From NCBI GenBank assembly GCA_963707485.1, contig CAVPQS010000046.1, forward strand, positions 2,434 to 66,433: 64,000 nt of DNA. Direction: 5' to 3'. The notes under the pieces are model-generated. The model did no database searches, had not been told where the DNA came from, and saw nothing but the letters and a program-made list of their open reading frames with translations. Shown here piece by piece: positions 4,876 through 62,093 of this stretch. Each line of letters opens with the position of its first letter. Position 1 is the first letter of the stretch. A program made the translations under genes and the position numbers. The stretch is from an uncultured bacterium. Its GTDB lineage: Bacteria; Zixibacteria; MSB-5A5; CAIYYT01.

Positions 4876-4889
4876 GTCACAGTCCAGTA

Positions 4890-28241: not shown

Positions 28242-28715
28242 ATGGAGACGAAAGATCAGGAATTCAAGCCCTTCAATGTAGATGTTTGGAAGCACGACGG
28301 CCACGCCGGAGCGCTGATTCCACTTCTTCAATCCGCTCAGGACACCTACGGTTATGTCTCTGAACGCGCGATGGATTACATCAGTCATGTTACCGGAATA
28401 CCACCCGCCGAGATTTACGGCGTGGTGACGTTTTATGCCCAATTTCGGACTAAGCCACTTGGTGAAAAAATTATCAAAGTCTGTAATGGCACCGCTTGTC
28501 ATGTCAACGGTGTAAAGGAAATCGCGAATACGCTGAAGGATGAGCTGGGGATAGACTACGAGGAGACGACCGAGGATGGAAAAGTCAGCATGGTATCGGT
28601 TGCGTGTCTTGGCTGTTGCTCTTTGGCGCCAGTAGTCATGGTGAGCAACGAGACTTTTGGGCGCTTAACTCCGCAAAAGACGCGGAAGCTTGTGCGCGAC
28701 TTGAGACGGAAATAG
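28242..28715 (+). CDS. NuoE/HoxE/HndA-like [2Fe-2S] thioredoxin-fold subunit (24-kDa-subunit-like).
   Basis: It carries the cysteine quartet of the NuoE family (C-x4-C ... C-x3-C: VCNGTACH ... VACLGCCSLAP). A GGAGA SD precedes the ATG. Confidence 0.85.
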   Translation: METKDQEFKPFNVDVWKHDGHAGALIPLLQSAQDTYGYVSERAMDYISHVTGIPPAEIYGVVTFYAQFRTKPLGEKIIKVCNGTACHVNGVKEIANTLKDELGIDYEETTEDGKVSMVSVACLGCCSLAPVVMVSNETFGRLTPQKTRKLVRDLRRK

Positions 28716-28726
28716 GACCGGCGAAA

Positions 28727-30490: not shown

Positions 30491-30498
30491 GGCGATTC

Positions 30499-33400: not shown

Positions 33401-34260
33401 AGTGTGCAAGGCTTTTGAGCGATAAAGACCGCAAAGTAGTTGCGATATACAATCTGGACAGCCGCCGCGACCGCTCACCAAACGACCTGAAGGCGCTGAC
33501 AGCGCTGATGCTTCTAACCGGCAAGATTGGCGTAGAAGGAAGCGGAATGATCCTCTTAACCAATCAAGCGAATGCGCGCGGAATGCAGATTGCGGGATTC
33601 GACCAGGCAATGTTACCGGGCGAGTCGCTGAATACACCGGATGCGCTCGCCAAGTTGTCGAAGGTTTGGAATCACGAACTGAGGCAGCTCAAGGGCAGCA
33701 CTACGGCTGATTTCCGGCAGGACTTTGAGGGTGGGAAATTCAAGGGCGGAATTGTGATAGGCGAAAATCCTGCCATTGATCCTGAGTGGGCAAAGAGAGT
33801 CGAGAAGCTGGAATTTCTCGTTGTGGCCGACATGTTCATGACGGAGACGGCAAAGCTTGCCGATGTTGTTTTGCCGTTGAATAGCTACGTAGAGGACGAG
33901 GGCACGATGACTAACTGGGAGGGGCTGCGCCAGTCGATCAAGCCGCTTGGCAAACCTCTAACAGGGCACAGCAATATCGACGTCATCGCGCGCATTATGC
34001 AGTCAGCCGACGGCGGTGTGCACGGTGTGACGTACTCCCACGAATTCCTTGGGAAAGAGATGAGTCAGTTAATCCCGGCGCGAGAACAGACCGTTGATAA
34101 CATGAAACGGTTCGCTACCAACTTTTCGACTCATGACGGCAAGGCCCACTTTGAAGTCTACCCGACGCAAATTAAGGCGACCGAGGTCAAGTGTCCGAAT
34201 GTTTTGGCGCTTGATGAAAGAACGGACGCAAAATTGGCACAGGTATTTGGACAGAAATAA
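30499..34260 (+). CDS. Large fusion oxidoreductase. It joins an N-terminal [2Fe-2S] ferredoxin (NuoG N-terminus-like), a GltD/NfnB-like FAD/NAD(P)H domain with Fe-S motifs, [4Fe-4S] ferredoxins, and a molybdopterin-oxidoreductase (FdhA/NuoG-like) domain.
   Basis: It has a [2Fe-2S] region (CYDKKLEPFGSCFLCVV). The GltD-like part is CRLNCPADVDIQGY followed by the dinucleotide folds VAIIGGGPAGLTCAYYL and VVVVGGGNTAIDAAR. Two 4Fe-4S ferredoxin motifs follow (CINCGRCVRTC, CVSCGNCVDACP). A Mo-bisPGD-type N-terminal cluster (CNFCSIGC ... GELCVRGRYG) resembles FdhF, and the protein is about 1254 aa. The region aligned to the FdhF Sec/Cys-His active site reads ...RLATDADYHS..., so it appears to lack the catalytic Cys/Sec-His pair. 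Confidence 0.75.
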   Translation: MITITINGNKVTADPNKTILETVHEQKLDSIPTLCYDKKLEPFGSCFLCVVEVAGMNKLVPSCATKPWDGMVVQTKSPKVVDARRTCLELLVSNHYADCFGACRLNCPADVDIQGYLSLTYLGKYHEAVQLIKEKNPFPSVCGRVCTRKCELSCRRKMIDDAVGIDYLKRFSADKDLEDMWTPHPKPRNGKKVAIIGGGPAGLTCAYYLTLEGYEPTVFEALPELGGMLRYGIPEYRLPKAILDKEIKWITDLGVEVHTNTKLGRDITLDGLFDQGFKSVFVGLGAQLAKSMGIANEQVKNILGGVDFLRDVTMINAPKFSGRVVVVGGGNTAIDAARTSLRLGASEVVLLYRRTRKEMPANELEIVAAEEEGINFKYLAAPTKINSKDGVLQSMECIEMELGEPDASGRRRPVEKKNSNFTLECDFVISAIGQEADLTGVENGNAGETDIELSKWHTIIAAEGSFNTNRAGVFAGGDVVTGPADAIDAVAAGRMAAFAIQRYIETGHYERLKPLFASRKDNLKEFTSEDFSDPVSSQRTHISELPVEERIHSFKEVELALTEEQAKFEACRCMECGCQVALECRLQDYCAEYGADQKRFVGEFNRYKVDTRHPFITLDSNKCINCGRCVRTCAEILDVSALGFVNRGFRTMVKPAMNKALADTNCVSCGNCVDACPTGAIVNKLPFGRSGPWLMNRIKNVCNFCSIGCNVEIKAKTADLFYVSGSFEGEPNFGELCVRGRYGYQQLLGNERMRKPLIRKGADLVPATWEQAWERIEQGIKDLKVEYGGGALMVAASPKLTNEELYLAGKLARVTLETNAIGSFQRLATDADYHSLDNMLGATTSSCGTKELEAADIILLVNCDPFTENPVLGWRLKRMLKKGKQAIVINSSDIGINRYATQWLDPRRGSSTLLLNGIMLELMKNGGGNLGYLETRTEGFERFKRSLLALDIEDVEAVTGVRSEKISECARLLSDKDRKVVAIYNLDSRRDRSPNDLKALTALMLLTGKIGVEGSGMILLTNQANARGMQIAGFDQAMLPGESLNTPDALAKLSKVWNHELRQLKGSTTADFRQDFEGGKFKGGIVIGENPAIDPEWAKRVEKLEFLVVADMFMTETAKLADVVLPLNSYVEDEGTMTNWEGLRQSIKPLGKPLTGHSNIDVIARIMQSADGGVHGVTYSHEFLGKEMSQLIPAREQTVDNMKRFATNFSTHDGKAHFEVYPTQIKATEVKCPNVLALDERTDAKLAQVFGQK

Positions 34261-48076: not shown

Positions 48077-51000
48077 CTACATCGCTTTACGCAATTTGTC
48101 ATACTGGTCGAGAATTCTAAAGGCAATCCCTTTGCCGCCGAACATATCCTCGTCCGCACCGCCACCTTTGAAAGTGGACAGGATGTATTCGACGTCGTCG
48201 CGCTCGATTTCGTAAAGAATGAAGTATGCAGCATCAAGTTCAGCCATAAGGTCCGCTCGTTCGCGTTCGTTCCATTTGTGTACGGGCGGATCAAAGCCGG
48301 CGGCTTCCGCCAATGGGATCATGTCATTGGCAGTGCAGGTGAGTTTCAGGACGCGGTCGGAAATCCAATTTTCGAGCTTGAGTTTGCGATTCCAAGGGCA
48401 TGGCTGCTGGTACCTGTCAGGTGTTAGAATTGGAAATTGCTCGAAAATGAAGAAATTCAGACTAATGCTCCCAATTTTTTGTCTCGCAACATAGTCGAGA
48501 GGCAACGAATACAAGTTCGCTTGAAAACAACACTGGAGCCGCACAGCAGTCGACTGGTCAAATTGGATGATCGGCAACTTGTTCAGCACACCCGAAATAG
48601 GAATGAATGTTGGTAGCACAGTTCTTCGGTCCGTTGTTCGAGTCACATCCCGAAAAGATAGAAAAGCAGGTTGAAGTTTTCCGCCCAATCGATTTGCAAT
48701 CACGCTTTCTTCAGCCCACCACCGAGGTTGTACAAGGTATTCGGGGTTCTCATGCTGCGAGACATTCGTTTCATGTGTCTGGCCTTGGTTCATCCAGTTC
48801 TCCACCTTGATGAAAACACTGCCGAACCGATGATCGTACGGTCTCATCATCTTCGCTTCATAGAGTGGTAAGTACCGGCTTTTCCCCCTGAGCCAATGAT
48901 TGCCCTTGAGCTTGAAGCCATCAGCCTTCAACTTTTCGCCGGTGACAAAATGTTCGGCATCATTAGTCTGATGAAACATGGTGAAGAAGCGGATGCCCCA
49001 AGGATTGCCCCCTTCCTCGCGGCCGTGGTCGATCAGAATCGGAACCCGGCGATAGATTGCCTTAGTGATTTCAGCATCGCGGTTTGAACGGAAAATGGGG
49101 CAAGTGCGTGTGTTTGGATTCAGTAGTTTAATGTCGTCGGGAGTAAGCGCAATGTGCTTCGAGGAGTCGGCGAGATCTTCGATGCGATGTGCAAAGAAGA
49201 CGAAGTCTGATTCCGAGACTGAGGTATTCGAACCGCCAAAAATGAGGATTGAAAACTTGAACGAACGATGAACATCCTGAAATATGGGCAACTTGTTCTC
49301 AAAGTCATATAGTCCGATAAGTGACTTAGTATCGACAATAGTAGCAAAGAAATCTTTGGTGGTGTTGTCGGTCGCGATGCCGGAGGGTACGAGCAGACCA
49401 ACACGGCCGGTGCCGCTCACAATGGAATGAGCGAGTTCGGCGAAGATGGCGTAGGTGTTGATATCGCCCCTACCGGTCAAGGGAAAGCGCTCTGAGTTGC
49501 GAATATAGGCCAAATTACGTTCGGCAACTGACTTGGCGGCCTGATACCGATCATGAACTTCGGGATTGGTCTGTTCCAATTGTTCGATAAGGCGGCGGCG
49601 CGTCGCGGCATCAACGGCGGAAGCAATGTCCGGACTGATTGAATCGAAGTATTCACGTTCCTGAAGTTTCATGCGTTCCCAGGGTGGGTTGCCGATCACG
49701 CAGTCAAAGCCGGGATCTTTGCGATCAAAAACATCCGGAAATTGCAGCTTCCAGTCAAAAGCTGCTGCATCGACCTGCGGATCAGAAACCAGGCTGTTTC
49801 CATGTACGACGTTTTTGGATAGGTCCGCGAGTGTTTTGCCGGGGCGCGCCGAACGAATCCACAATGCCAATTGCGAGATTTCGACGGCTTCTTTCGACAG
49901 GTCGACGCCATGAATATTGTCGTGGAGGATGAAGTCAGAGATCTGCCCGCCCAGGTCGTTGTTGTTGGACCCTTCATGGAACGTGATCAAATCGATGATG
50001 CCGGTGTAAAGATCCTCAAGTAAGTCATATGCCGCGATCAAGAATGCACCTGACCCGCAAGCCGGATCGACAATCTTGAGATCACGCAAAGCGGCAAGGC
50101 AATGGCGGCCATAGTTGGCCAGTAATGGTTCTCGATCGGAAATGCGAATCTTGTCCTGATCCACGCCGAGTTGTTTCGCAACGAGGGCAGTTCTCTGCTG
50201 AAAGACCGGGAGTATTGTCGCTTTCACGATATAATCGGTAAATTCGGGAGGCGTATAGTAGATGCCCTGGCGTTTGCGTTCGGGAGACTTTGCCATTTTC
50301 GCTTTTGCGTCGTGAATGACAGTCGTCCCCAGCAAACCGCCGAGCTTTATTACTTCGATATCTTTCACCGACTTCTCGAACAGACGGCCAAGAACTTCAA
50401 CGCTTACTTCGTCGCGAAAGTCGTACGATGCGATTGTCTCGAAAAAGTCCGTCCAGGTGTCTTCGAGTTGGAGATTGTCGACCTCCTCGTCACTGCGATA
50501 TAGTCCGCCATTAAACGCAGGAATCTGAGCCTGTTCGTGCCCCTTGTCGATACTCTGGAAAAGTTCGAGGAAATTTTGCCACTGGGGATTAGTAACGCGC
50601 GAGTAAGGGCTTTTGTGTTTGCGTGCCCGAATAATTGATTCAGCCGGAATCAACTCACGATCCTCGCAGAACGCGATGAAAATAATCCGGTCGAGCAGCA
50701 GTTGGGCAATTCGTAGCGCCGACTCATGTGATTTTTTGTACTTGGGACCGGAAAGATGGAGGATGAGATCACGGCGGTGATTGTCGTACTGCAGATACAA
50801 ATCGTCTTCAACCTCGCGTTGGCGATCACCTGTCTCCTTGAGCAAGCGCGCGGCTCGCGATTCGCGACTATCCAGAGACAGCAAGCCGTCGCGCTGAAAC
50901 AAATAGTAGAATTTCGCAAAGTTTTCGGCGTTCTTTAGATCCTTGAGCGCGAAGAGTTCAAAGGACTGCCAAGATTTGTTTCTATGATAGAGTCGGAAAC

Positions 51001-51556
51001 TAACGATGTTGGAAACGATACCCCACTCACAGCCTTCAAGGGAAGCCAGATAATCGCGACACTGCTGGACGGCCGTGCGACCAGACGAGCGATCGCGGTC
51101 GAGATTTACTTTGGGGCCCTTTATTTCAACGGCCACTAATGGTTGCGGCTTGAAATTAGCGCGAAAAATCCCCAGTACGGCGTCGACAATACCACCGCTT
51201 ACTGGAAACTTTGGTTCGATGTACCATTCTTCTTGGTTTGCACTAAGCGGCGTGTAACCCAGAGCTTGCTGGAATACTTCGCCGAAGAAATCGACTTCAA
51301 GTGTGGTTTCCTTTTTTCGTTCGAGCTTTTTGCTTTCTTCGAGATCCGCCCATTTGCAGATAATTCGATACGCGCTCTGATAGGCCTCGTCCTTGAATTT
51401 AGTCTGAAGCGAAGCTTTATGCAGCAAGCGCCGGATAAATAGATTTTGGCGATGTCTATCCGCACCGTAGCGAATCGGATCGTCTTTCTCGAATATGTCA
51501 CCGTTTGTTAGCTTCAAAGTCTCACCTTTGGTCAAGATCAACCCATGGAACGGCAA
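48077..51556 (-). CDS. Type IIG (MmeI-like) restriction-modification enzyme, 1159 aa. It carries an N-terminal PD-(D/E)xK nuclease, a gamma-class N6-adenine methyltransferase and a C-terminal target-recognition region.
   Basis: It has a PD-ExK-like motif (IVDAVLG ... LVAVEIKGP), AdoMet motif I (VDPACGSGAFLIAAYDLL) and catalytic motif IV (VIGNPPWERMKL). The local GC content looks lower than in flanking genes. Confidence 0.65.
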   Translation of the reverse strand: MPFHGLILTKGETLKLTNGDIFEKDDPIRYGADRHRQNLFIRRLLHKASLQTKFKDEAYQSAYRIICKWADLEESKKLERKKETTLEVDFFGEVFQQALGYTPLSANQEEWYIEPKFPVSGGIVDAVLGIFRANFKPQPLVAVEIKGPKVNLDRDRSSGRTAVQQCRDYLASLEGCEWGIVSNIVSFRLYHRNKSWQSFELFALKDLKNAENFAKFYYLFQRDGLLSLDSRESRAARLLKETGDRQREVEDDLYLQYDNHRRDLILHLSGPKYKKSHESALRIAQLLLDRIIFIAFCEDRELIPAESIIRARKHKSPYSRVTNPQWQNFLELFQSIDKGHEQAQIPAFNGGLYRSDEEVDNLQLEDTWTDFFETIASYDFRDEVSVEVLGRLFEKSVKDIEVIKLGGLLGTTVIHDAKAKMAKSPERKRQGIYYTPPEFTDYIVKATILPVFQQRTALVAKQLGVDQDKIRISDREPLLANYGRHCLAALRDLKIVDPACGSGAFLIAAYDLLEDLYTGIIDLITFHEGSNNNDLGGQISDFILHDNIHGVDLSKEAVEISQLALWIRSARPGKTLADLSKNVVHGNSLVSDPQVDAAAFDWKLQFPDVFDRKDPGFDCVIGNPPWERMKLQEREYFDSISPDIASAVDAATRRRLIEQLEQTNPEVHDRYQAAKSVAERNLAYIRNSERFPLTGRGDINTYAIFAELAHSIVSGTGRVGLLVPSGIATDNTTKDFFATIVDTKSLIGLYDFENKLPIFQDVHRSFKFSILIFGGSNTSVSESDFVFFAHRIEDLADSSKHIALTPDDIKLLNPNTRTCPIFRSNRDAEITKAIYRRVPILIDHGREEGGNPWGIRFFTMFHQTNDAEHFVTGEKLKADGFKLKGNHWLRGKSRYLPLYEAKMMRPYDHRFGSVFIKVENWMNQGQTHETNVSQHENPEYLVQPRWWAEESVIANRLGGKLQPAFLSFRDVTRTTDRRTVLPTFIPISGVLNKLPIIQFDQSTAVRLQCCFQANLYSLPLDYVARQKIGSISLNFFIFEQFPILTPDRYQQPCPWNRKLKLENWISDRVLKLTCTANDMIPLAEAAGFDPPVHKWNERERADLMAELDAAYFILYEIERDDVEYILSTFKGGGADEDMFGGKGIAFRILDQYDKLRKAM

Positions 51557-55300: not shown

Positions 55301-55886
55301 CGCGGCGCGTCTCTACGGCGGCGGCGGTGCGCACAGCATGTTCATGAAGACATGGGGGGCCGGTCTTGCCTATTCGAACGGATTGCGCAGCCGCGAGTCG
55401 ACGGGCCGAATTGTCTACTACGCGGAACGCTGTCCCGATTTGGCGCAGACTATGCAATTCGTTGTCGGCGAGCTGAAGAAGGCGCCGAACGATCCGGCGC
55501 TTGGCGATTACACGGTAGCTCAGGCGTTCAATGCCAACCGAGCTGCGACGACCTACGAAGCGCGCGGCGAGGCGATAGCGCGCGATCTTGCCGACGGCAA
55601 CACACCCGCAGTCGTCCGTGAGTTCCGCCAGGGGATTCTCGATCTGCATAAACAGCCGGATTTCTATAATCGCGTTCAAGGCAGAATGGAGCCGGTGTAT
55701 GGACTATTATTGCCCGACTACGGCCCAACGGCACAGGAGGCGGTGACAAAGAGCAATGCCGTGAATTTTGTCATTGGTCCGGAAAAGCAGTTTGAATCGT
55801 ATGAGCGATATTTGCAGAGCGTCGAACCGGGCGCGAAACTGATCCGCCTGTACCCGCGCGACTACTGGATGGTCAGTAAACAATAG
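52305..55886 (+). CDS. Very large secreted M16-family (inverzincin, PreP/M16C-like) metallopeptidase, 1193 aa.
   Basis: It has a signal peptide (LLLIALALTCATAFG). An HTCEHLLLG (HxxEH) motif sits about 95 aa from the N-terminus, with ...EKGTVYNEM further downstream. This matches M16 zinc ligand spacing. Confidence 0.65.
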   Translation: MQRRLYPTLLLIALALTCATAFGVNYSDLKVDQQLAQFRTECVYENEAKATIGARFRHIPSGFVADLFTIQSVPQAFMWFNTLPPSDQGESHTCEHLLLGKGTKGRYVASMEDMLLGESSAFTMQLQTYFSFNCGSGTDNFFKLFEAKLDALVHPNYSDEEIRREVCHVGLTEDQASGTVGLEEKGTVYNEMVRSFESPWGELMLELARMVYGPNHPLSYESGGYPPAIRTMTPADLRRFQEGAYHINNMGAVISIADDITIENCLAKLSEILNRIEPNATVANDPASLNERLPAKNAAPIGTVKLVSFPAQLESDPGLLVYSWPADFDMNNDDRFLLELFVENLSGDQTSLLYRRLIDSQTRLMDVGAAGIGSWVSNEKGQAINIYFDDIKRESCTPEMIDSVRSIILREIMTVASFADGSAELTTFNQQALERISSRERGMRTFLNSPPRFGERSSGAQWMTAVQRLHKSGGFKRSLAFADEIAYARQQVSNSKNIWRDLVSQWRLVENRPYAVAAVANPQVIGIQQAERQARIEAYVSDLKTQYAVSSEQEAIQKFKTDYDTETAKIDAAAATIQMPGFVTNPPMTLDDPLKYVVDTVAGQVPVVASKFENITNATTGLAFNLNVIPEDELLYIAALPTLLTEIGIDSDSGTLTFDQMQGRLRSEISSLNAYFNVNYRTERAELVLRAAGSTQAEGVKALEWIDSILFNSYIELENLPRIRDAIDYSLAGLRSTMRGSEEFWVEGPADSYWRQSNPLLLATDCFMTKAFNLYRVKWMLRDAGDPNKAGSFVKFLEDLAARGANLNRKQLGELLATLSGDQKFTWSAAIVADLTGKYLIADSRNAELIQEVSRDLQRVLSDIPDTSLATDWQFLCWQTARDASMDDQTALAQIRGVFDKLRHTDNVRVFMISGSATKEALMPRLAGIVGKLDPQPSVRQKYNSGALVTSRYKERTGDPNSPIYVGLVNENTRSGVIVNTADCASFTSHTQAGLIDFLAARLYGGGGAHSMFMKTWGAGLAYSNGLRSRESTGRIVYYAERCPDLAQTMQFVVGELKKAPNDPALGDYTVAQAFNANRAATTYEARGEAIARDLADGNTPAVVREFRQGILDLHKQPDFYNRVQGRMEPVYGLLLPDYGPTAQEAVTKSNAVNFVIGPEKQFESYERYLQSVEPGAKLIRLYPRDYWMVSKQ

Positions 55887-55937
55887 CGATCGCAAAACAT
55901 ATCCCATTGCACTTGGGACTCGACCGTTAGTAATAAG

Positions 55938-55976
55938 AAAGCCCTGTTGGTAATGACACCAACAGGGCTTTTGTTC
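55938..55976. terminator. Bidirectional rho-independent terminator hairpin between convergent genes.
   Basis: AAAGCCCTGTTGGT-aatgac-ACCAACAGGGCTTT is followed by TTTTGTT on the plus strand and is flanked by an A-rich tract on the other side. Confidence 0.45.
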
Positions 55977-55992
55977 CATGCCTCATTTATTC

Positions 55993-57960
55993 TCAGGCTT
56001 TTGTGTTGTCGTCGGTTCCATTCTTCTTTGCGAACATCCGGCGATACCATTTCGGATGATGATGCTTTACGGATTCCACCGTGACCCTGCCGGTGATCCA
56101 GGCAAATGACATTGGATACTGTTCCGGGTGGAAGATTACAAAGAAGAAGTGGAACACAGCAATCGCAAGAGTTGCGAGCCAGGCTTCATAATAGTGAATC
56201 GTTTCCGATACCTTGACAATCCATGCCGGCATGAAGCCGGTGAAGAAGGTTGGGAACCAGAGAACGAATCCGGTCAATACCATAGCAATTGTTCCCCACA
56301 CCAGCGCCCAGTATTCGGCTTTCTCGGTGTAATCGTACATGTCAAATTGGGGACGTTGGTCGGTAAGGCCGAGATGGAATTTCACGTTCTGGATTACATC
56401 CGTGAAATCCTGCTTCACCGGCATGAATCCGCGCAATTGTTCCTTGCCGCGGCGGGAGATAAACAAGAACAACCCATGATGCAGCGAAACATAGATGAGA
56501 AACACGGCTGCGATTCTGTGAATGACGCTGCGTGTATCTTCGAAAATGCCGAAGAAATTCAGGATGCCGACCCACCAGGAATCGGGGAATCGCAGGGCAA
56601 ATCCCGTGATCACAAGCACAATAAATGCGACAGTCAGAACCAGATGCTGGAAAACCATATTGCCGGTAAAGCGAAGCACCGTCGGCTGGGCTTTGTTTTG
56701 GCGATGTTTCTGGACGACGAATGCGCCAATGATAATGCCGTTGTGCACCAGCATGCCGCCGATGATAAGCACGATGGCAAGAATGTACGCGAAGCGCACC
56801 CAGCGATCGATCGGATTAAATTCCTGCTGTGCGGTCTTGTGGGTATAGCTGGTAGCGAAAGCGAGATTTGCCTTCGGATGACAAGTCTGGCAAGTCTCGA
56901 CAATATTTTCGCGGCTCACGGAAGACGCTGGATTTGCAGATGGAAGAATATCGTGAGCGCGATGGCAGGAAATGCAATTGGCCGCTTTGATCGAACCACC
57001 CCGGATAGCGAGGCCATGGTATGAATCCTGGTATGACGTAAATCTGCCCTCAGCGAGGCCATACTTTTCCATCAACTGCGGATCATTGTGGCAGCGGCCG
57101 CAAACATAGTCGGCAAGATTTGACTGATTGACCGGCGAATCGGGATCGCCGATGCGCCTGATTTCGTGTTCTCCATGACAGTCAGTACAGTTCGGCGCAT
57201 CGAGAATGCCGGCCTGGAGCGCTTTGCCATGAATACCGCGAAAATACTGAATGCTGATATCGTTGTGGCATTTCGAACAAGTCTTCGGGATGTTTTGCTT
57301 ATTTACCATTGAGGCCGGGTCAGACGCCTTTTTGAGGTCGTGAGTTCCGTGACAGTCGTTACATGAAGCCGCCGAGCCTATCCCCTTCTGGATTCCTTCA
57401 GCATGGATGCCCTTAATGTAGCGGTCAAAAGAATCGGTTATGCGAATATCAGAGTCCTCTTTGAGTGCTATCTTATGATGGCAAGCGGCACACGTGTTGG
57501 GAAGGTTTTTAGCCGAAGTCTTCGAAGCTGGATTCTCTTGCGGAAAGATGGCGTGACTTCCGTGACAGGATTGGCAATTCGGCGCGTTGGGATTGTCGAG
57601 CGCCTTTCCGTGCGCAGAGGTCATGAAAACGCCATTAACATCGTCATGACAAGTCCCGCATTGAACGGGTTTAAGTTCATCATTGTGCGGAAAGTCAGTG
57701 ATACCGGCGAGGTCGGCATGACAATCGACACATTCGAAGCTGCCGTGTGATGAGGACAGCAGAGAGTCGAGGTGGATAAACATGCTGATCTCGCTGCCAT
57801 CGCGCGCGGCACCGGTTAGAGTGTTATCGGAGTGACACTCCATGCAGGCTTCATTGCTGGCGGACAGCGGCGAAAAGCCGACCAATAAGAGCAATGCAAG
57901 CGCAAACGTTGTTTTCACCAGGGTGCCCGGCACAGGCGTTCGTCGGAAAAGTTCATTCAT
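55993..57960 (-). CDS. CbcL-like fusion protein: a periplasmic multiheme cytochrome c (about 11 CXXCH) fused to a C-terminal membrane diheme cytochrome b (FdnI/HydC-like).
   Basis: It has a signal peptide and 11 CXXCH motifs. Five or more C-terminal TM helices carry conserved His residues (MLVHNG, FQHLVLTVAF, SLHHGLFLF, HYYEAWLATLAIAVFHFFF). Confidence 0.8.
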   Translation of the reverse strand: MNELFRRTPVPGTLVKTTFALALLLLVGFSPLSASNEACMECHSDNTLTGAARDGSEISMFIHLDSLLSSSHGSFECVDCHADLAGITDFPHNDELKPVQCGTCHDDVNGVFMTSAHGKALDNPNAPNCQSCHGSHAIFPQENPASKTSAKNLPNTCAACHHKIALKEDSDIRITDSFDRYIKGIHAEGIQKGIGSAASCNDCHGTHDLKKASDPASMVNKQNIPKTCSKCHNDISIQYFRGIHGKALQAGILDAPNCTDCHGEHEIRRIGDPDSPVNQSNLADYVCGRCHNDPQLMEKYGLAEGRFTSYQDSYHGLAIRGGSIKAANCISCHRAHDILPSANPASSVSRENIVETCQTCHPKANLAFATSYTHKTAQQEFNPIDRWVRFAYILAIVLIIGGMLVHNGIIIGAFVVQKHRQNKAQPTVLRFTGNMVFQHLVLTVAFIVLVITGFALRFPDSWWVGILNFFGIFEDTRSVIHRIAAVFLIYVSLHHGLFLFISRRGKEQLRGFMPVKQDFTDVIQNVKFHLGLTDQRPQFDMYDYTEKAEYWALVWGTIAMVLTGFVLWFPTFFTGFMPAWIVKVSETIHYYEAWLATLAIAVFHFFFVIFHPEQYPMSFAWITGRVTVESVKHHHPKWYRRMFAKKNGTDDNTKA

Positions 57961-58025
57961 ATTTACTACTCCAGTATCTCACAATCAAAACAAATTCGAC
58001 CTAATATACAACTACTTACTCCCTA

Positions 58026-60656
58026 TCACGCAGTTAATTGACCGAGAATGATCAGGAAGAGTAGGAAGAATCCAGTCAACAGTGCGACGGCACCCCAGAC
58101 ATAAGATATAATCGAGAGTACGAGACCAAGCGGCTTTTTCTGATGCTGCTCAAGTTCGCCGGCTTCGCGCAAACGCTGATACTCCAGCGGGCGTTCTTCC
58201 ATCATTTCTTTCTCGGAAATCCTGCCGGTGTAGACTGACACGTCCATCGGGAATTTGCTGGCGCGCAGATGCGTATTGAAGAAATGCACAATGAAGATGA
58301 AAGCCGTCGCCAACAGCGCTTCTTCTTTGTGGACGGTGTCGGCAAGACTGATCACGCCGCCGCCAAGCAGGTTGCCGAAGAATTCCTCCTGCCAACGCAG
58401 CAAGCCGGACAGACCGATTACAAACACGCCCCAGAAGACCGCAAAGTAATCGAACTTTTCCCAGTAGGTCCAGCGGTCAAAGCGCGGGTGCGGGCCCCGA
58501 TTGAAGAACCACTTTGCGTGCTCAAGGAAATCAGTCAGGTCCTTCTTGCGGAACATGAGCGTGTTCGGGCCGGTGAGCATTTCTTTAATGCTGCTTTTCC
58601 GCAGCTTGAAAATCAAGAAAATGATATGCGCAAGGAAATAGAATCCGGTGATTGCGGCGGCAATGTAATGAAGCTTTTGCGCCGTCTGCAGCGACATGAA
58701 GTTTGCGAACAGCCATTTGGCGAGATCAGTATGCGCGTAAGACTGCGGCAGACCGGTGAATGCCAAAGTCAAGAAGCTAATATTCACGAGGATGTGCAGG
58801 AAGCGATGGAAACCATCGATACGGCCATAGTAGGTTTCTTTTTTGATAACACGAGCGCGGATTCCGCGTTGGAACCAGAGCATTGTGTGGAATCCAAAGG
58901 CGCCAAGAACTGCGATGAGCAAAACCGTCATCATGCCCGTGACGAGAGTATTGAACTTGGACCATCCTCCGACAATCTGCCTGGTGTTGTCCTGCAGGTC
59001 GCGGTCAAGCGATTGAAGAACGCTGTCATCCTTGGCGCTTTCGAGGCCAGAGCGCAGCTCGGCTTCGCTTGGTTTGATCGGATGGACGAGATACGAGACA
59101 AAGCGATCATTTGCGCGCGGGTGACATTGTTTGCAGGTTTCAACGATGTGGTCGCGGTTAACCGATGAGGTCGAGTCATTCGGCTCCTGAATGGAGTGCG
59201 AACCGTGGCAATTGGTGCAGACAGCGAATTTAACTTCTTCAGTTCCTGTCTCGAACAGCTTGCCGTGATACGTTTCCTTGTATCCTTCGACGACATACGG
59301 ATTGATCTGGAACTTGAGCATCTTGTCTTTATCGGAATGGCACTTGGAGCAGAGCGCTACGATGCCCTCGGGAGTAAACTGCTCCTCCGTTTTCTTGATG
59401 TCAATTTCACCGTGACAGTCTGTGCAGGTCGGCGCTTCGAGAATGCCTTGAGCGCGAGCGCGCCCGTGAATAGATTGTTTGTACTGCCGGTTTTGTTCGG
59501 CATGGCAGTTGATGCATTCCGTGCGGCGATGTTTGACCGCGTCGTTATCGAGTCCGGGAAGATTCCAGTGGTAGGTATGACACTGCGTGCAGTTCGCCTC
59601 GGAACCGTCGGCATTGAGCAGCATCAATTGGCCATGAGCAAGGTTCTCCTTAGTGTGCCGCTCGCCCGAGTGGCAGATATTGCAGCGATTGACTATGCCG
59701 CCCTCTTTAAAAATCGCTTGATTAATAGAAGCCATGTCGGTTTGGTGGCCGGTGTGGCAAGAAGCACAGGAAATTGATGCCGGGTCGACACCGGGATCGC
59801 GGTGAAGACTTTCCTTGTGTCCGGGGTGGCATTCGTTGCAGACGTCGGAGATGTGCACCGAATTGACGCGGGATTTCGGATCCGACGGCTTGCGGATGTC
59901 ATGCTTCTCGTGGCAACTCGTGCAGACCGGGGCCTTCGTATTGCCGCTTTCCATCTCGTGGAAGTGGCGCGAGTGGATGTAAGTCTCGATGTCGCGCTGG
60001 TGGCACTTGGAGCAAATGTCGACGATCTCTTGCTTGTATTCGGTCTCGGTCATGACGTCCTTTTTGGACTTGAAATGGGCGTCATGGCAAGTTGTGCATA
60101 TCGGGTAGTTGCGATTGTCTTCCTGGTACTTCTGATAGTGGTAGCTTTGCTTGTATTCGGCAGCCTGTTTGGGATGGCACCGTTCGCAGACGATTTTCAT
60201 GCTCAAATCTTTTTGAGCGTTGTGCGTACCGTGACACTCTTTGCAGTCGGGGATGTCCTCTTTGCCTTTGCCCTTGAGCATCTTGTAGAAGTACTCCATC
60301 CAGGTCGCGCTGACGACTTTATGGCAAGGTTCGCACTGGACGGGTTGGTACTCAGTAAAGTGCGGCACGTCCTCGAAGTTTGCACCCGGTTGATTGTGGC
60401 AATCGACGCAAGCCATCGATTTGTGAACCGAACTATGCAGGCTATCGCTGCTGACAAACACCGATTTTCCGGATTCGGCGCTCAACGTTTCATCGGAATG
60501 GCAGTCGAGGCATAGTTGGTTGTCGGGCTTAGCTGCTGTTTCGGACTGAGCGTATAGCGTTGACAGACCACCGAGCAAAAACAAACTCAGCACGGCAACC
60601 AAAGTCGCAGCGTTTCGAAGATATTGTTGAAGATTTCGGATTGATGGCATGGTCAT
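58026..60656 (-). CDS. CbcL-like fusion protein: a multiheme cytochrome c (about 17 CXXCH) fused to a C-terminal membrane cytochrome b domain.
   Basis: It has a signal peptide (LVAVLSLFLLGGLSTLYAQ), 17 CXXCH motifs, and a C-terminal polytopic domain with His in the TM helices (FHRFLHILVN, KLHYIAAAITGFYFLAHIIF). Confidence 0.8.
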   Translation of the reverse strand: MTMPSIRNLQQYLRNAATLVAVLSLFLLGGLSTLYAQSETAAKPDNQLCLDCHSDETLSAESGKSVFVSSDSLHSSVHKSMACVDCHNQPGANFEDVPHFTEYQPVQCEPCHKVVSATWMEYFYKMLKGKGKEDIPDCKECHGTHNAQKDLSMKIVCERCHPKQAAEYKQSYHYQKYQEDNRNYPICTTCHDAHFKSKKDVMTETEYKQEIVDICSKCHQRDIETYIHSRHFHEMESGNTKAPVCTSCHEKHDIRKPSDPKSRVNSVHISDVCNECHPGHKESLHRDPGVDPASISCASCHTGHQTDMASINQAIFKEGGIVNRCNICHSGERHTKENLAHGQLMLLNADGSEANCTQCHTYHWNLPGLDNDAVKHRRTECINCHAEQNRQYKQSIHGRARAQGILEAPTCTDCHGEIDIKKTEEQFTPEGIVALCSKCHSDKDKMLKFQINPYVVEGYKETYHGKLFETGTEEVKFAVCTNCHGSHSIQEPNDSTSSVNRDHIVETCKQCHPRANDRFVSYLVHPIKPSEAELRSGLESAKDDSVLQSLDRDLQDNTRQIVGGWSKFNTLVTGMMTVLLIAVLGAFGFHTMLWFQRGIRARVIKKETYYGRIDGFHRFLHILVNISFLTLAFTGLPQSYAHTDLAKWLFANFMSLQTAQKLHYIAAAITGFYFLAHIIFLIFKLRKSSIKEMLTGPNTLMFRKKDLTDFLEHAKWFFNRGPHPRFDRWTYWEKFDYFAVFWGVFVIGLSGLLRWQEEFFGNLLGGGVISLADTVHKEEALLATAFIFIVHFFNTHLRASKFPMDVSVYTGRISEKEMMEERPLEYQRLREAGELEQHQKKPLGLVLSIISYVWGAVALLTGFFLLFLIILGQLTA

Positions 60657-60668
60657 ATCCTCGTTAAG

Positions 60669-61280
60669 TTATTTTCGAAGTGTCTTGCGACTCAGGCCGT
60701 CGACGAAGATCGGAACGTTGTTGGCGACGATTTCCTCACAGCGAAAGCTCTTGCCTTGAGAGTTTTTCCAAAGGGTCAATCCCAACGCGCAGTCGAAAAT
60801 CATTCCCAGGAAGCTGCGAGCGGTAATCTCGTTGTTGGAATCAACGATTAGGCCCATAGTGACCAGGCGGTCGAGTTGAAGTTGGAGGTATTTTGCGTGA
60901 CGGCCCCGAATGGACTGGTAGACCGCCCGAGCTTTAGAGTGGCCACCCAAGGCCGAGTATAGAAGCAGGCGGTAGACTTCCTGATGCTTCTGGGCGCAAT
61001 TGAGCAACTGGTTGGCAATACGGGTGAGAAGCTGTCCTAAATCGTTTTCAGAATCCAGCTCGCCGTAGATATCGTCGCACTGAAGGCGTGTTTCCAACGA
61101 ATCGAGGACGGCATCGTAAATCAGCTCTTTGGAGGCGAAATAGCGATAAAGGGCCGGTTCAGTAACGCTACATGCAGCCGCGAGGCGCTTGGTTGTGACC
61201 TTATCGTAGCCTTCTACCGAGAAGAGCTTGGTGGCTTCTTCGAGAATTTGATTGCGTCTTTCTTCAGCACCGAGCTTCAT
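60669..61280 (-). CDS. TetR/AcrR-family transcriptional regulator.
   Basis: It has an N-terminal HTH (RRNQILEEATKLFSVEGYDKVTTKRLAAACSVTEPALYRYF). A GGAGG SD lies 5 nt upstream of ATG 61280. Confidence 0.8.
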   Translation of the reverse strand: MKLGAEERRNQILEEATKLFSVEGYDKVTTKRLAAACSVTEPALYRYFASKELIYDAVLDSLETRLQCDDIYGELDSENDLGQLLTRIANQLLNCAQKHQEVYRLLLYSALGGHSKARAVYQSIRGRHAKYLQLQLDRLVTMGLIVDSNNEITARSFLGMIFDCALGLTLWKNSQGKSFRCEEIVANNVPIFVDGLSRKTLRK

Positions 61281-61451
61281 TCGTCCTCCGACGTCGGTAG
61301 TTAAGTCGCATATTCGACCCAATTGGCGACGTTGTAGTTAACACTAACTAACAGGATCGGCACTGTCAAGGGAAAAGTGAGTTATTTTGTTACTTTTTTC
61401 ACAATCTTAGAGCCAAAGGACCGATGATCCCGATAGTTATTTACTCGTAAG

Positions 61452-62093
61452 TTAAAGATGAAAAGAGAGATAGCGGATCGTGCGGTTAACTGAAAGGTGC
61501 CGCTTTTCGTATGCAGTCTGTATCTTCAGCAACTCAGGAATGTCGGCGGAGGCGTATACATCATCGATCTTATCCACAAGCCTGCTGCCGCTGCTATCGA
61601 TGACTTTTTGAGTATAGGCAAAGAGATTGGGCTCGTCTGTCTTGAGATGGATCAGCCCCCCAGGTCGCAGAATCTTTCGATAGAGACTAATGAAATCAGG
61701 CGATGTGAGCCGCTTTTTGGCCCGACATTGACTGAGATATGGATCCGGAAATGTGATCCAAATCTCGGAGACTTCGTCTTTGCCAAAGCAGTCGGCGATG
61801 CGTTCGATCGGCATTCTCAGGAAGGCGACGTTCTTGAGGTTCAGGTTAAGCGACATCTTTGCGCCGGACCAGATGCGGGCGCCCTTAAGGTCAACTCCAA
61901 CGAAGTTTCGCTGAGGATAGAACTGCGCCATATTGACAGTGTATTCGCCTTTGCCGCAGGCCAATTCGAGAGTAATCTCATTGTCATTGTGAAAAAACTC
62001 ACTATTCCACTTTCCTTTGAGGTCGGTCATCATTTGGATGACGTGAGGGAAGTTGGCCATTTCAGCAAAGCGAATTAGTTTTTTTTTAGGCAT
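61452..62093 (-). CDS. trmB: tRNA (guanine46-N7)-methyltransferase.
   Basis: It has TrmB motifs (LELACGKGEYTVNMAQ ... VGVDLKG ... EIWITFPDP). The coding sequence begins ATG-CCT-AAA-AAA-AAA (A9 run). Confidence 0.85.
   Translation of the reverse strand: MPKKKLIRFAEMANFPHVIQMMTDLKGKWNSEFFHNDNEITLELACGKGEYTVNMAQFYPQRNFVGVDLKGARIWSGAKMSLNLNLKNVAFLRMPIERIADCFGKDEVSEIWITFPDPYLSQCRAKKRLTSPDFISLYRKILRPGGLIHLKTDEPNLFAYTQKVIDSSGSRLVDKIDDVYASADIPELLKIQTAYEKRHLSVNRTIRYLSFHL

What the first reader, a model, noticed from the sequence alone, without database searches (positions are those of the whole stretch)
55993..61280. Two tandem CbcL-like genes (multiheme cytochrome c fused to diheme cytochrome b) under a TetR-family regulator
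Both proteins combine a periplasmic multiheme domain (11 and 17 CXXCH) with a C-terminal HydC/FdnI-like membrane cytochrome b. This architecture was described for Geobacter CbcL, an inner-membrane quinol oxidase used for low-potential extracellular acceptors. Having two paralogues of different heme number side by side, preceded by a TetR regulator, suggests potential-dependent alternative quinol:cytochrome oxidoreductases. The 17-heme version is much larger than CbcL itself.
Basis: partly seen in the sequence, partly recalled or inferred. Interest (0 to 1): 0.7.

Follow-up and report, generated by a model that had tools for sequence, protein, structure and literature searches.

The report
Paired CbcL-type quinol-oxidising cytochromes, Zixibacteria
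A three-gene operon in a Zixibacteria genome encodes a TetR regulator and two membrane proteins that each fuse a chain of c-type hemes (17 and 11) to a two-heme cytochrome b; they are true relatives of Geobacter CbcL and most likely connect the membrane quinone pool to periplasmic cytochromes, which makes them new members of a family already known to vary widely in heme number.

Summary
On the minus strand lie tetR (60669..61280/61322), gene A (58026..60656; 876 aa, 17 CXXCH) and gene B (55993..57960; 655 aa, 11 CXXCH). Each has a signal peptide, a multiheme domain and a C-terminal FdnI/HydC-type cytochrome b.

The four FdnI heme-b histidines are invariant in 105 and 106 homologues. Both predicted cytochrome b domains superpose on E. 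coli FdnI (TM-score 0.74 and 0.76).

A aligns end to end with a CbcL orthologue from a Geobacteraceae MAG (34% identity, E 2e-101, six TM helices). A is effectively CbcL with eight extra N-terminal hemes. B (29%, E 5e-73) falls in a sister clade with five TM helices and an FdnI-like C-terminus.

A 2018 survey already reported CbcL/MtrH/MtoC homologues in 15 phyla with 3 to 23 hemes, so neither the architecture nor the size is new.

Three modest additions:
- The 17-heme then 11-heme tandem recurs in Neomarinimicrobiota, Bacteroidia and unclassified MAGs.
- A conserved palindrome, TAGTTA-N4-TAACTA, overlaps the tetR promoter.
- B-type proteins form a distinct clade.

Use of the two proteins at different redox potentials, and the direction of electron flow, remain untested.

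Verdict: new member of a known kind, moderate-low interest.

The parts
60669..61322 (-). tetR-family regulator (204 aa from the ATG at 61280; 217 aa if the TTG at 61322 is used)
   Evidence: PF00440 TetR_N matches at E 1.3e-14. Orthologues of 72% and 51% identity sit in the same position in L001 and L003.
61335..61350 (.). Candidate TetR operator: palindrome TAGTTA-GTGT-TAACTA overlapping the putative -10 hexamer (TAGTGT, 61346..61341)
   Evidence: Both arms are invariant in the aligned upstream regions of L001 and L003. It occurs once in the 64-kb window, against 0.01 expected. Binding was not tested.
61364..61369 (-). Putative -35 hexamer TTGACA, 17 nt upstream of TAGTGT
   Evidence: Read directly from the sequence. 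TTGAC is invariant in L001 and L003. The consensus scanner did not call this site.
61384..61404 (-). Conserved upstream element TTGTGAAAAAAGTAACAAAAT, function unknown
   Evidence: It is nearly invariant in the three aligned loci, while the flanking sequence is not.
58026..60656 (-). Gene A: 876-aa, 17-heme, CbcL-clade fused cytochrome bc
   Evidence: Supported. It shows 33.7% identity, E 2e-101, end to end with a Geobacteraceae CbcL orthologue.
59067..60548 (-). A: periplasmic multiheme c domain (aa 37-530), following a Sec signal peptide (aa 1-36)
   Evidence: It has 17 CXXCH motifs. Fifteen non-motif His and Met308 are conserved at 95% or more (13 of the His are invariant) and could serve as distal ligands. 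AF2 confidence is low for aa 310-345.
58029..58967 (-). A: membrane domain (aa 564-876) made of linker helix TM0, a four-helix FdnI-like diheme cytochrome b, and an extra C-terminal helix TM5
   Evidence: Helices are predicted at 564-598, 615-639, 656-687, 731-755, 766-796 and 845-875. Invariant His621, 663, 776 and 791 correspond to FdnI His18, 57, 155 and 169. Foldseek matches 1kqf_C with target-normalised TM-score 0.74.
55993..57960 (-). Gene B: 655-aa, 11-heme fused cytochrome bc of the sister (five-TM) clade
   Evidence: Supported. It is 100% identical to P0121, a 'Candidatus Zixiibacteriota bacterium' MAG protein.
56836..57855 (-). B: periplasmic multiheme c domain (aa 36-375), following a signal peptide (aa 1-35)
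   Evidence: It has 11 CXXCH motifs and exactly 11 invariant non-motif His, which implies that all hemes are bis-His ligated.
55996..56814 (-). B: membrane domain (aa 383-655) made of linker helix TM0 and a four-helix FdnI-like diheme cytochrome b, ending in an FdnI-like HHHPKWY motif with no sixth helix
   Evidence: PF01292 scores 54.8 bits. PDB 1kqf_C matches at E 3e-8 over 439-643. Foldseek gives target-normalised TM-score 0.76. His439, 481, 589 and 604 are invariant.
55938..55971 (-). Terminator-like hairpin (15-bp stem) closing the operon
   Evidence: Found by the consensus scan and visible in the sequence. The T-tract after the stem is weak.

Best explanation
tetR-A-B is one transcription unit in a Candidatus Zixiibacteriota genome.

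Architecture of A and B:
- Both are inner-membrane members of the CbcL/MtrH/MtoC superfamily.
- A Sec-exported multiheme domain with mostly bis-His hemes (17 in A, 11 in B) sits in the periplasm.
- A single linker helix returns the chain to the cytoplasm.
- A four-helix FdnI/HydC-type cytochrome b then carries two stacked b hemes, one near each face of the membrane.

Proposed mechanism:
- By analogy with FdnI and CbcL, menaquinol is oxidised at a site next to the cytoplasmic-side heme b. The most conserved motif of the family, YWEKFD in A and YTEKAEYW in B, aligns with the FdnI quinone-site loop.
- Electrons cross the membrane through the two b hemes and enter the c-heme chain.
- The c-heme chain passes them to periplasmic or outer multiheme cytochromes. 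The flow could also run in reverse.

What is shown and what is inferred:
- Shown: the architecture, homology to CbcL and FdnI, ligand conservation, operon structure and conserved synteny.
- Inferred: the quinone site, the direction of flow, the partners, and repression by TetR at the palindrome over the -10 region.

How A and B differ:
- A is a CbcL-clade protein with eight additional N-terminal hemes.
- B belongs to a separate, more FdnI-like clade.
- The two types are found side by side in several phyla, so they probably do complementary rather than redundant jobs.
For: Motifs and topology:
- Heme motifs and TM helices are as described.
- Pfam and NCBIfam place the C-terminal domains in the cytochrome b561 / FdnI family.

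Heme-b ligands:
- FdnI aligns to B with His18, 57, 155 and 169 opposite His439, 481, 589 and 604.
- These positions, and His621, 663, 776 and 791 in A, are 100% conserved in 106 and 105 homologues.

Structure:
- The AF2 models have mean pLDDT of about 79, with the membrane domains at 85-94.
- Their only significant PDB match is FdnI 1kqf_C, with target-normalised TM-scores of 0.76 and 0.74.

Homology to CbcL:
- The comparators are CbcL-clade orthologues. L043 is from a Geobacteraceae MAG and L095 from the Soudan_16 MAG. Their heme positions match those listed for CbcL in Table S2 of PMC6295460.
- Direct BLAST gives A 33.7% identity over CbcL residues 21-615 (E 2e-101) and B 29% (E 5e-73).

Other evidence:
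- Distal ligands: 11 invariant His for 11 hemes in B, and 15 conserved His plus Met308 for 17 hemes in A. This matches the all-bis-His finding for CbcL (PMC9129911).
- Operon: RBS sites, short gaps and a terminator.
- Synteny: tetR-A-B is conserved in L001 and L003, and A is followed by B in other phyla.
- The quinone-site side and the energetic argument come from the CbcL literature (bioRxiv 10.1101/2022.08.31.506072).
Against: - No experiment bears on function, direction of flow or redox potential.
- No porin-cytochrome or other partner gene sits next to the operon. The only other cytochromes in the window are about 50 kb away.
- The two TM4 histidines are 15 residues apart, against 14 in FdnI. 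A also has an invariant His796, so the ligand of the cytoplasmic-side heme is not certain.
- The PF01292 score for A is only just above threshold.
- GSU0274 itself could not be retrieved. Orthologues stood in for it.
- The tree is neighbour-joining without bootstrap support.
Confidence: 0.7

Rival explanations
1. A and B are alternative quinol oxidases used at different acceptor potentials, as ImcH, CbcL and CbcBA are in Geobacter. TetR would control the pair.
For: - In Geobacter, distinct inner-membrane cytochromes serve different potential windows (PMC6295460; bioRxiv 10.1101/2021.04.15.440034).
- A and B are deeply diverged at 27% identity and fall in separate clades, yet they are kept together in many lineages.
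Against: - The two genes are co-transcribed from one promoter. That fits simultaneous use better than switching.
- In Geobacter the alternative oxidases are not adjacent, and CbcL is constitutive, being gated at the protein level.
- Nothing in the sequence reports heme potentials.
Confidence: 0.25
2. The proteins run in reverse as quinone reductases. They would take electrons from extracellular donors such as Fe(II), cathodes or syntrophic partners and reduce menaquinone at the cytoplasmic face. As in Fdn-N, this would build membrane potential.
For: - MtoC homologues of the same superfamily occur in Fe(II) oxidisers. No sequence feature separates oxidising from reducing members (PMC6295460).
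- Zixibacteria MAGs have been proposed as both iron reducers and iron oxidisers (PMC9769843).
- One A-type homologue (P0083) comes from Candidatus Electryonea clarkiae.
Against: - No carbon-fixation or Fe(II)-oxidation marker lies next to the operon.
- The only member with biochemical data (CbcL) passes electrons outward to PpcA (PMC9129911).
Confidence: 0.25
3. A and B assemble into one hetero-oligomeric membrane complex whose heme chains act together. They would not be two independent enzymes.
For: - A is followed directly by B on the same strand in Zixibacteria and in at least five loci outside it (L007 Neomarinimicrobiota, L112 Bacteroidia, and L029, L099 and L033 from unclassified MAGs). 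The same is probable in three more loci.
- A-like and B-like genes are adjacent in L005 and L128.
- The related FdnI works inside an oligomer (established knowledge of Fdn-N, PDB 1kqf).
Against: - Each type also occurs alone. A-type is alone in L006, L025 and L129, and B-type in L004.
- Pairwise identities of partner A and B cytochrome b domains are poorly correlated in rank (Spearman 0.13, not significant), so partners have been exchanged.
- CbcL works without such a partner.
Confidence: 0.15
4. The proteins are membrane anchors that feed a dedicated periplasmic terminal reductase for a soluble acceptor, as NrfH, NapC or FdnI do. They would then not belong to an extracellular electron-transfer chain.
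For: - The cytochrome b domain family normally serves periplasmic catalytic subunits (PF01292, TIGR01583).
- Related clusters carry NrfCD-like and NapC/NirT-like genes.
Against: - No reductase or dehydrogenase gene lies in or next to this operon. The neighbours are trmB and a convergent M16-like peptidase.
- Chains of 11 and 17 hemes are far longer than a simple anchor needs.
Confidence: 0.1

Closest known systems
CbcL (GSU0274) of Geobacter sulfurreducens and its Desulfuromonadia orthologues
   Same: - The domain order is the same: signal peptide, bis-His multiheme c domain, linker helix, FdnI/HydC-type diheme cytochrome b.
- A also shares the sixth C-terminal helix, the HTxLW motif in the linker helix, YRRF before TM1, RGPxPxFxRWTYWEKFD, and EALLATxFIFxVHFFNTH in TM4.
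- A aligns with CbcL residues 21-615 at 34% identity.
- The spacing of the last three heme motifs (about 28, 43, 28 residues) is shared by A, B and CbcL (Table S2 of PMC6295460).
   Different: - CbcL has 9 hemes and 619 aa. A has 17 hemes and 876 aa, the extra eight being N-terminal. B has 11 hemes and 655 aa.
- B has only five TM helices, ends in an FdnI-like HHPxWY motif, and falls outside the CbcL clade.
- His677 (A) and His495 (B), invariant in these two families, are absent from the CbcL orthologues.
- The host is a Zixibacteria genome rather than Desulfuromonadia, and the genes sit in a TetR-headed operon.
MtoC / MtrH and the wider CbcL/MtrH/MtoC set surveyed by Zhong & Shi 2018 (PMC6295460)
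   Same: - These are fused multiheme c / cytochrome b proteins in 15 phyla, with 3 to 23 CX2CH motifs and 416-1034 aa. They include 11-heme forms and the 19-heme Caldithrix abyssi Cabys_319.
- The heme-motif spacing of B resembles the listed 11-heme proteins such as Opitutus Oter_2603.
   Different: - The survey's CbcL table has no Zixibacteria entry. In the two of its three parts read here there is no 17-heme entry either.
- Nearly all surveyed proteins have six predicted TM helices. The five-TM B-type clade and the A-then-B tandem are not described there.
- MtoC and MtrH sit in mtrAB/mtoAB clusters, whereas this operon has no porin or MtrA-like neighbour.
FdnI, gamma subunit of E. coli formate dehydrogenase-N (PDB 1kqf chain C), and HydC/HyaC
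   Same: - The fold is a four-helix diheme cytochrome b (target-normalised TM-scores 0.74-0.76).
- The four His ligands lie on helices 1, 2 and 4.
- B keeps the C-terminal HHPxWY motif.
   Different: - FdnI is a separate subunit that receives electrons from FeS subunit FdnH, whose own TM helix packs against it. Here a multiheme c domain is fused through a linker helix that may occupy the equivalent place (inference).
- Sequence identity is only 16-19%.
- No FdnGH or hydrogenase genes are present.
ImcH, CymA and other NapC/NirT-type quinol dehydrogenases
   Same: Their proposed role is the same: moving electrons between the quinone pool and periplasmic multiheme cytochromes.
   Different: - They are an unrelated design, with N-terminal TM anchor(s), no b hemes, and a quinol site at the periplasmic face.
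- The Pfam Cytochrom_NNT model does not match A or B at E 0.01 or better.

Membership tests
CbcL/MtrH/MtoC fused bc-cytochromes | N-terminal exported multiheme c-type domain (CXXCH motifs, bis-His ligation) | tested here: met
   A has 17 motifs and B has 11, each behind a signal peptide. B has 11 invariant non-motif His. A has 15 conserved non-motif His plus Met308.
CbcL/MtrH/MtoC fused bc-cytochromes | C-terminal HydC/FdnI-like membrane cytochrome b domain | tested here: met
   PF01292 scores 54.8 bits for B and 30.4 bits for A (cut-off 30.1). PDB 1kqf_C matches B at E 3e-8. Foldseek gives target-normalised TM-scores of 0.76 and 0.74 against FdnI.
CbcL/MtrH/MtoC fused bc-cytochromes | Conserved His ligands for two b hemes on helices 1, 2 and 4 of the cytochrome b domain | tested here: met
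   His621/663/776/791 in A and His439/481/589/604 in B are 100% conserved in 105 and 106 homologues. They lie opposite FdnI His18/57/155/169 (HMMER alignment). The same His pattern, with the same 15-residue TM4 spacing, occurs in CbcL orthologues L043 and L095. Geometry was not checked.
CbcL/MtrH/MtoC fused bc-cytochromes | Six transmembrane helices (linker, four of cytochrome b, one C-terminal) | tested here: inconclusive
   A has six helices, at positions that parallel those of GSU0274 (Table S2 of PMC6295460). B has five and lacks the C-terminal helix.
CbcL/MtrH/MtoC fused bc-cytochromes | Full-length sequence homology to a bona fide CbcL | tested here: met
   Against L043, a Geobacteraceae MAG protein of 615 aa with heme positions matching the CbcL clade, A gives 33.7% identity (E 2e-101) over CbcL residues 21-615. 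B gives 29% identity (E 5e-73). GSU0274 itself was not available. OCR fragments of it in the PMC9129911 supplement agree with L043.
CbcL clade proper (as opposed to the superfamily) | Groups with Desulfuromonadia CbcL in a tree of the cytochrome b domain | tested here: inconclusive
   In the neighbour-joining tree (335 columns, no bootstrap), the A family lies inside the large clade that holds CbcL, the 11-, 15- and 19-heme six-TM proteins and unfused relatives. It forms its own 17-heme branch there. The B family lies in the sister clade.
CbcL (functional definition) | Required for reduction of extracellular acceptors below about -0.1 V; passes electrons to periplasmic triheme cytochromes | not testable with these tools
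   This needs genetics and electrochemistry. The literature basis is PMC9129911 and bioRxiv 10.1101/2022.08.31.506072.
TetR-family repressor controlling its own operon | N-terminal TetR HTH domain, and a palindromic operator overlapping the promoter of the regulated genes | tested here: inconclusive
   The HTH domain is present (PF00440, E 1e-14). A 16-bp palindrome at 61335..61350 overlaps the putative -10 hexamer. It is conserved in L001 and L003 and unique in the window. Binding and the ligand are unknown.
   There is no CXXCK motif. HAO chains match only at E about 0.005, over spaced CXXCH motifs. NrfB, an electron-transfer pentaheme protein, matches at E 7e-5. NCBIfam hits to NrfB and DmsE fall far below their cut-offs.
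Formate dehydrogenase-N or [NiFe] hydrogenase gamma subunit | Stand-alone cytochrome b encoded next to its catalytic and FeS subunits | tested here: not met
   The cytochrome b is fused to a multiheme domain. The neighbours are tetR, trmB and an M16-like peptidase.

The most novel reading that the evidence does not exclude
The 17-heme A-type and 11-heme B-type proteins may form a conserved two-component module, kept together across several phyla because the two cytochrome b types do different things. For example, one could oxidise quinol while the other returns electrons to the pool. Or the two could handle different quinones or redox windows, or act as one hetero-oligomeric wire. The five-TM B-type clade would then be a second, undescribed class of inner-membrane entry point for extracellular electron transfer, alongside CbcL.
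Probability: 0.15. Interest if true: 0.6.

Novelty: new member of a known kind. Interest (0 to 1): 0.35.

Why it matters
Inner-membrane quinol oxidases are the least understood step of extracellular electron transfer, and nearly all of what is known comes from Geobacter and Shewanella.

These genes give uncultured Zixibacteria, which are common in sediments and aquifers, a plausible link between the quinone pool and their very large multiheme cytochromes. One such cytochrome, with 58 heme motifs, lies in the same window.

The recurring pairing of a CbcL-type protein with a more FdnI-like fused cytochrome gives experimenters two natural variants to compare. That comparison could show what sets the direction and the redox window in this family.

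The architecture, its spread across phyla and the variation in heme number were already published in 2018. This is therefore an extension of known biology rather than a surprise.

Tried and rejected
1. Foldseek against AFDB50, intended to pull out GSU0274 by structure, could not run because the library was not installed.
2. Protein P0292 (9 hemes, CbcL-like motif spacing) was considered as a stand-in for CbcL. It lacks the sixth helix and groups with B, so it was rejected.
3. The supplementary alignment of PMC9129911 is held only as poor OCR, with the same text repeated for every species. I used it only to derive the motif WEKFD[Y]FAVFWGM for the genome scan, not as data.
4. The repeat finder with a 10-nt minimum found no inverted repeat upstream of tetR. 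The 6+4+6 palindrome was found by eye from the alignment and then checked by pattern search.
5. The sigma-70 scanner did not call the TTGACA/TAGTGT pair, and overall it found fewer promoter-like sites than in shuffles.
6. Rfam gave no hit in 55800..61700.
7. The DUF4405 membrane protein at 6597..7457 was tested as a possible unfused relative of the B cytochrome b domain. hhalign probability was 0.3%, so it was rejected.
8. A mirror-tree test for co-evolution of A and B gave Pearson 0.66, driven by close relatives, but Spearman 0.13 (not significant). It does not support an obligate complex.
9. HAO/NrfA membership was considered because of weak PDB hits and rejected.
10. No paper in the library mentions CbcL together with Zixibacteria, Marinimicrobia, Calditrichota, Ignavibacteria or Gemmatimonadota.


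Full report
**What is in the sequence**

Three ORFs lie on the minus strand of 55993..61322:
- a TetR-family gene at 60669..61322, with an ATG at 61280 as the likelier start
- gene A at 58026..60656 (876 aa)
- gene B at 55993..57960 (655 aa)

A has exactly 17 CXXCH motifs and B has exactly 11. Every cysteine in both proteins belongs to one of these motifs, and there are no CXXCK or CX3-4CH variants.

Both begin with a signal peptide. After the last heme motif both turn hydrophobic, with six predicted helices in A and five in B.

Pfam finds cytochrome c7, c3 and paired-CXXCH repeats in the N-terminal parts. It finds PF01292 (Ni_hydr_CYTB) at the C-termini, at 54.8 bits for B and 30.4 bits for A against a cut-off of 30.1. 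The upstream protein matches TetR_N at E 1e-14.

**Operon structure**

- The tetR stop codon is 12 nt before the ATG of A, which is preceded by GAGGA.
- B starts 65 nt after A, behind GGAG.
- A hairpin with a 15-bp stem follows B at 55971..55938.
- The next gene, a 1193-aa M16-like peptidase on the plus strand, is convergent. Upstream lies trmB.
- In the 171-nt region before tetR there is a TTGACA at 61369..61364. Seventeen nt downstream is TAGTGT, embedded in the palindrome TAGTTA-GTGT-TAACTA at 61350..61335.
- I aligned the same region from two related genomes whose proteins are 72-80% identical to A and B. The -35 hexamer and both palindrome arms are invariant, while surrounding bases vary. 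A second block, TTGTGAAAAAAGTAACAAAAT, is also conserved.
- The palindrome occurs once in the window, against 0.01 expected.

This is what a TetR operator over its own promoter would look like. Binding is not shown.

**The cytochrome b domains**

- The best solved relative of B by sequence is E. coli FdnI (1kqf_C, E 3e-8). In that alignment FdnI His18, His57, His155 and His169 lie opposite B His439, His481, His589 and His604. I take those four as the known ligands of the two b hemes, which is established knowledge of Fdn-N. My recalled FdnI sequence has His at exactly those positions.
- In a MAFFT alignment of 105 A-type and 106 B-type C-terminal domains, these positions are 100% His. The equivalents in A are His621, 663, 776 and 791.
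- AF2 models built from family alignments have mean pLDDT of about 79, with 85-94 over the membrane domains. For both, the only significant match in the PDB is FdnI, with target-normalised TM-scores of 0.76 and 0.74.

Two caveats apply:
- The two TM4 histidines are 15 residues apart, not 14 as in FdnI.
- Further invariant histidines exist and are unexplained. These are His590 (A) / His406 (B) at the cytoplasmic end of the linker helix, His677 (A) / His495 (B), and His796 in A only.

**The multiheme domains**

- B has exactly 11 invariant non-motif histidines for its 11 hemes.
- A has 15 conserved histidines plus Met308 (97% conserved) for its 17 hemes. The shortfall lies in a poorly modelled stretch, aa 310-345.
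- This agrees with the all-bis-His ligation shown by NMR for the nine hemes of CbcL (PMC9129911).
- Matches to hydroxylamine oxidoreductase are marginal (E about 0.005) and cover only spaced CXXCH motifs.

**Is it CbcL-like?**

GSU0274 was not directly available. I derived the motif WEKFD[Y]FAVFWGM from A and from an OCR fragment of the published CbcL alignment, then scanned species-representative genomes with it.

Among more than 120 matching loci were:
- L043, from a Geobacteraceae MAG: 615 aa, hemes at 35, 58, 83, 106, 130, 160, 188, 231, 259
- L095, from the Soudan_16 MAG: 617 aa, hemes at 33, 56, 81, 104, 128, 158, 186, 229, 257

Their lengths and heme positions match the CbcL clade in Table S2 of Zhong & Shi 2018, where GSU0274 has 619 aa and hemes at 34..257.

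BLAST against L043:
- A residues 260-875 align with CbcL residues 21-615 at 33.7% identity, E 2e-101. This covers all nine hemes, the linker helix, the cytochrome b and the sixth helix. A is in effect CbcL with eight more hemes at the N-terminus.
- B aligns at 29% identity, E 5e-73.

A neighbour-joining tree of cytochrome b domains (335 columns, FdnI as outgroup, no bootstrap) splits the fused proteins into two deep clades:
- One holds CbcL, the 11-, 15- and 19-heme six-TM proteins, some unfused cytochromes b, and a single branch of 17-heme proteins that includes A.
- The other holds B and its relatives. These have five TM helices and an FdnI-like HHPxWY C-terminus, with 9, 11, 17 or 19 hemes. 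The clade also contains an unfused cytochrome b from another Zixibacteria genome.

A and B share only 27% identity. They are ancient paralogues, not a recent duplication.

**Distribution and synteny**

- B is identical to a protein annotated from a 'Candidatus Zixiibacteriota bacterium' MAG. A cluster member of the same length class comes from the same contig.
- Both families are large. Among cluster representatives at 50% identity, 1012 match B at E 1e-30 or better.
- trmB-tetR-A-B is conserved in two related genomes.
- In a complete Zixibacteria genome (CP070777), a B-type gene ends a ten-gene cytochrome cluster headed by a TetR gene. That cluster contains an unfused cytochrome b.

Outside the phylum, the 17-heme A-type gene is followed directly by an 11-heme B-type gene in several loci:
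- L007 (Neomarinimicrobiota), L112 (Bacteroidia), and L029, L099 and L033 (unclassified MAGs)
- probably also L008, L022 and L037, where the downstream gene is cut by the locus end
- L127 has one gene between the two
- L005 and L128 have a 17-heme B-like gene next to an A-like gene

A-type occurs alone in L006, L025 and L129.

Pairwise identities of partner A and B domains are not rank-correlated (Spearman 0.13). Partners have therefore been exchanged, and the two can exist separately. That argues for complementary function rather than an obligate co-evolving complex.

**How it most likely works**

Shown: each protein places a chain of mostly bis-His c hemes in the periplasm and an FdnI-type diheme b in the membrane.

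Inferred from FdnI and the CbcL literature (bioRxiv 10.1101/2022.08.31.506072):
- Menaquinol is oxidised near the cytoplasmic-side b heme. The loop that lines the FdnI quinone site aligns with the most conserved motif in both families.
- Electrons cross the membrane through the two b hemes and leave along the c-heme chain to periplasmic or outer cytochromes.
- With protons released on the cytoplasmic side, this route conserves little energy. That is the argument made for CbcL.
- The same device run backwards would reduce quinone with external electrons and build membrane potential, as proposed for MtoC (PMC6295460).

Sequence cannot decide the direction. No partner is encoded beside the operon. 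The only other cytochromes in the window are a 20-heme and a 58-heme protein, with a DUF4405 membrane protein, about 50 kb away.

**Novelty and verdict**

Zhong & Shi (2018) already reported 138 CbcL/MtrH/MtoC homologues in 15 phyla, with 3-23 heme motifs and 416-1034 aa. Their list includes 11-heme proteins and the 19-heme protein of Caldithrix abyssi. The architecture, its phylogenetic breadth and heme-number variation are therefore known.

Not found in the papers I could search:
- Zixibacteria members
- a 17-heme subfamily
- a distinct five-TM B-type clade
- the recurrent A-then-B tandem

These are useful refinements rather than a new kind of system. I rate the finding a new member of a known kind, with moderate-low interest (0.35).

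The most novel reading still open is that A and B form a conserved two-component module with divided labour. I put that at about 0.15.

Noticed in passing
window 595..7457 (minus strand): A second cytochrome cluster. It holds a DUF4405 membrane protein (6597..7457, 286 aa), a 20-CXXCH cytochrome (4890..6596, 568 aa) and a giant cytochrome of 1426 aa with 58 CXXCH motifs (595..4875). It could be the periplasmic or extracellular partner of A and B. The DUF4405 protein is not detectably related to the cytochrome b domain of B.
   Followed up: partly
L007 410..5643; L029 3304..7829; L099 3605..8000; L112 1551..6184; L033 3794..7999; also L008, L022, L037: A 17-heme A-type gene is followed directly by an 11-heme B-type gene outside Zixibacteria, in Neomarinimicrobiota, Bacteroidia and unclassified MAGs. 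In L008, L022, L037 and L099 the pair is preceded by small 11-, 4-6- and 4-heme cytochrome genes. No TetR gene was found in these loci.
   Followed up: partly
L004 1..11974 (Zixibacteria chromosome CP070777): A TetR-headed ten-gene cluster. It contains 10-, 6- (NapC/NirT-like), 11-, 8- and 13-heme cytochromes, a 573-aa protein without Pfam hits (a possible outer-membrane component), an unfused B-clade cytochrome b (318 aa) and a terminal B-type fusion. It looks like an unfused, expanded version of the module.
   Followed up: partly
window: A His590, His677, His796 (and His642, His713); B His406, His495, His611: These histidines in the membrane domain are invariant or nearly so, beyond the four FdnI-type ligands. 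The His at the cytoplasmic end of the linker helix is also present in CbcL orthologues (HTxLW motif). His677 (A) / His495 (B) is not present there. Their role is unknown. Candidates are the quinone or proton site, an alternative ligand, or a third heme.
   Followed up: no
window 61384..61404: The block TTGTGAAAAAAGTAACAAAAT, upstream of the -35 hexamer, is conserved in L001 and L003 while flanking sequence is not. It could be an UP element or a site for a second regulator.
   Followed up: no
window 28604..34260 (plus strand): A NuoF-like flavoprotein (628 aa) is followed by a 1276-aa fusion of 2Fe-2S, GltD-like pyridine-nucleotide oxidoreductase, Nqo3-like ferredoxin and molybdopterin oxidoreductase domains. 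It resembles a soluble NAD(P)-linked formate dehydrogenase-type complex.
   Followed up: no
window 48077..51556 (minus strand): A 1159-aa Eco57I/MmeI-type protein, with restriction and N6-adenine methylase functions in one polypeptide.
   Followed up: no
window 24125..27379 (minus strand): A 1084-aa protein with a TPR array and a C-terminal CHAT protease domain.
   Followed up: no
loci L010, L013, L018, L047, L063 and others: Stand-alone cytochromes b of about 280-350 aa in Ignavibacteria, Bacteroidota and Eisenbacteria carry the same WEKFD[Y]FAVFWGM motif and group inside the CbcL-type clade. Fusion to the multiheme domain has therefore been gained or lost several times.
   Followed up: partly
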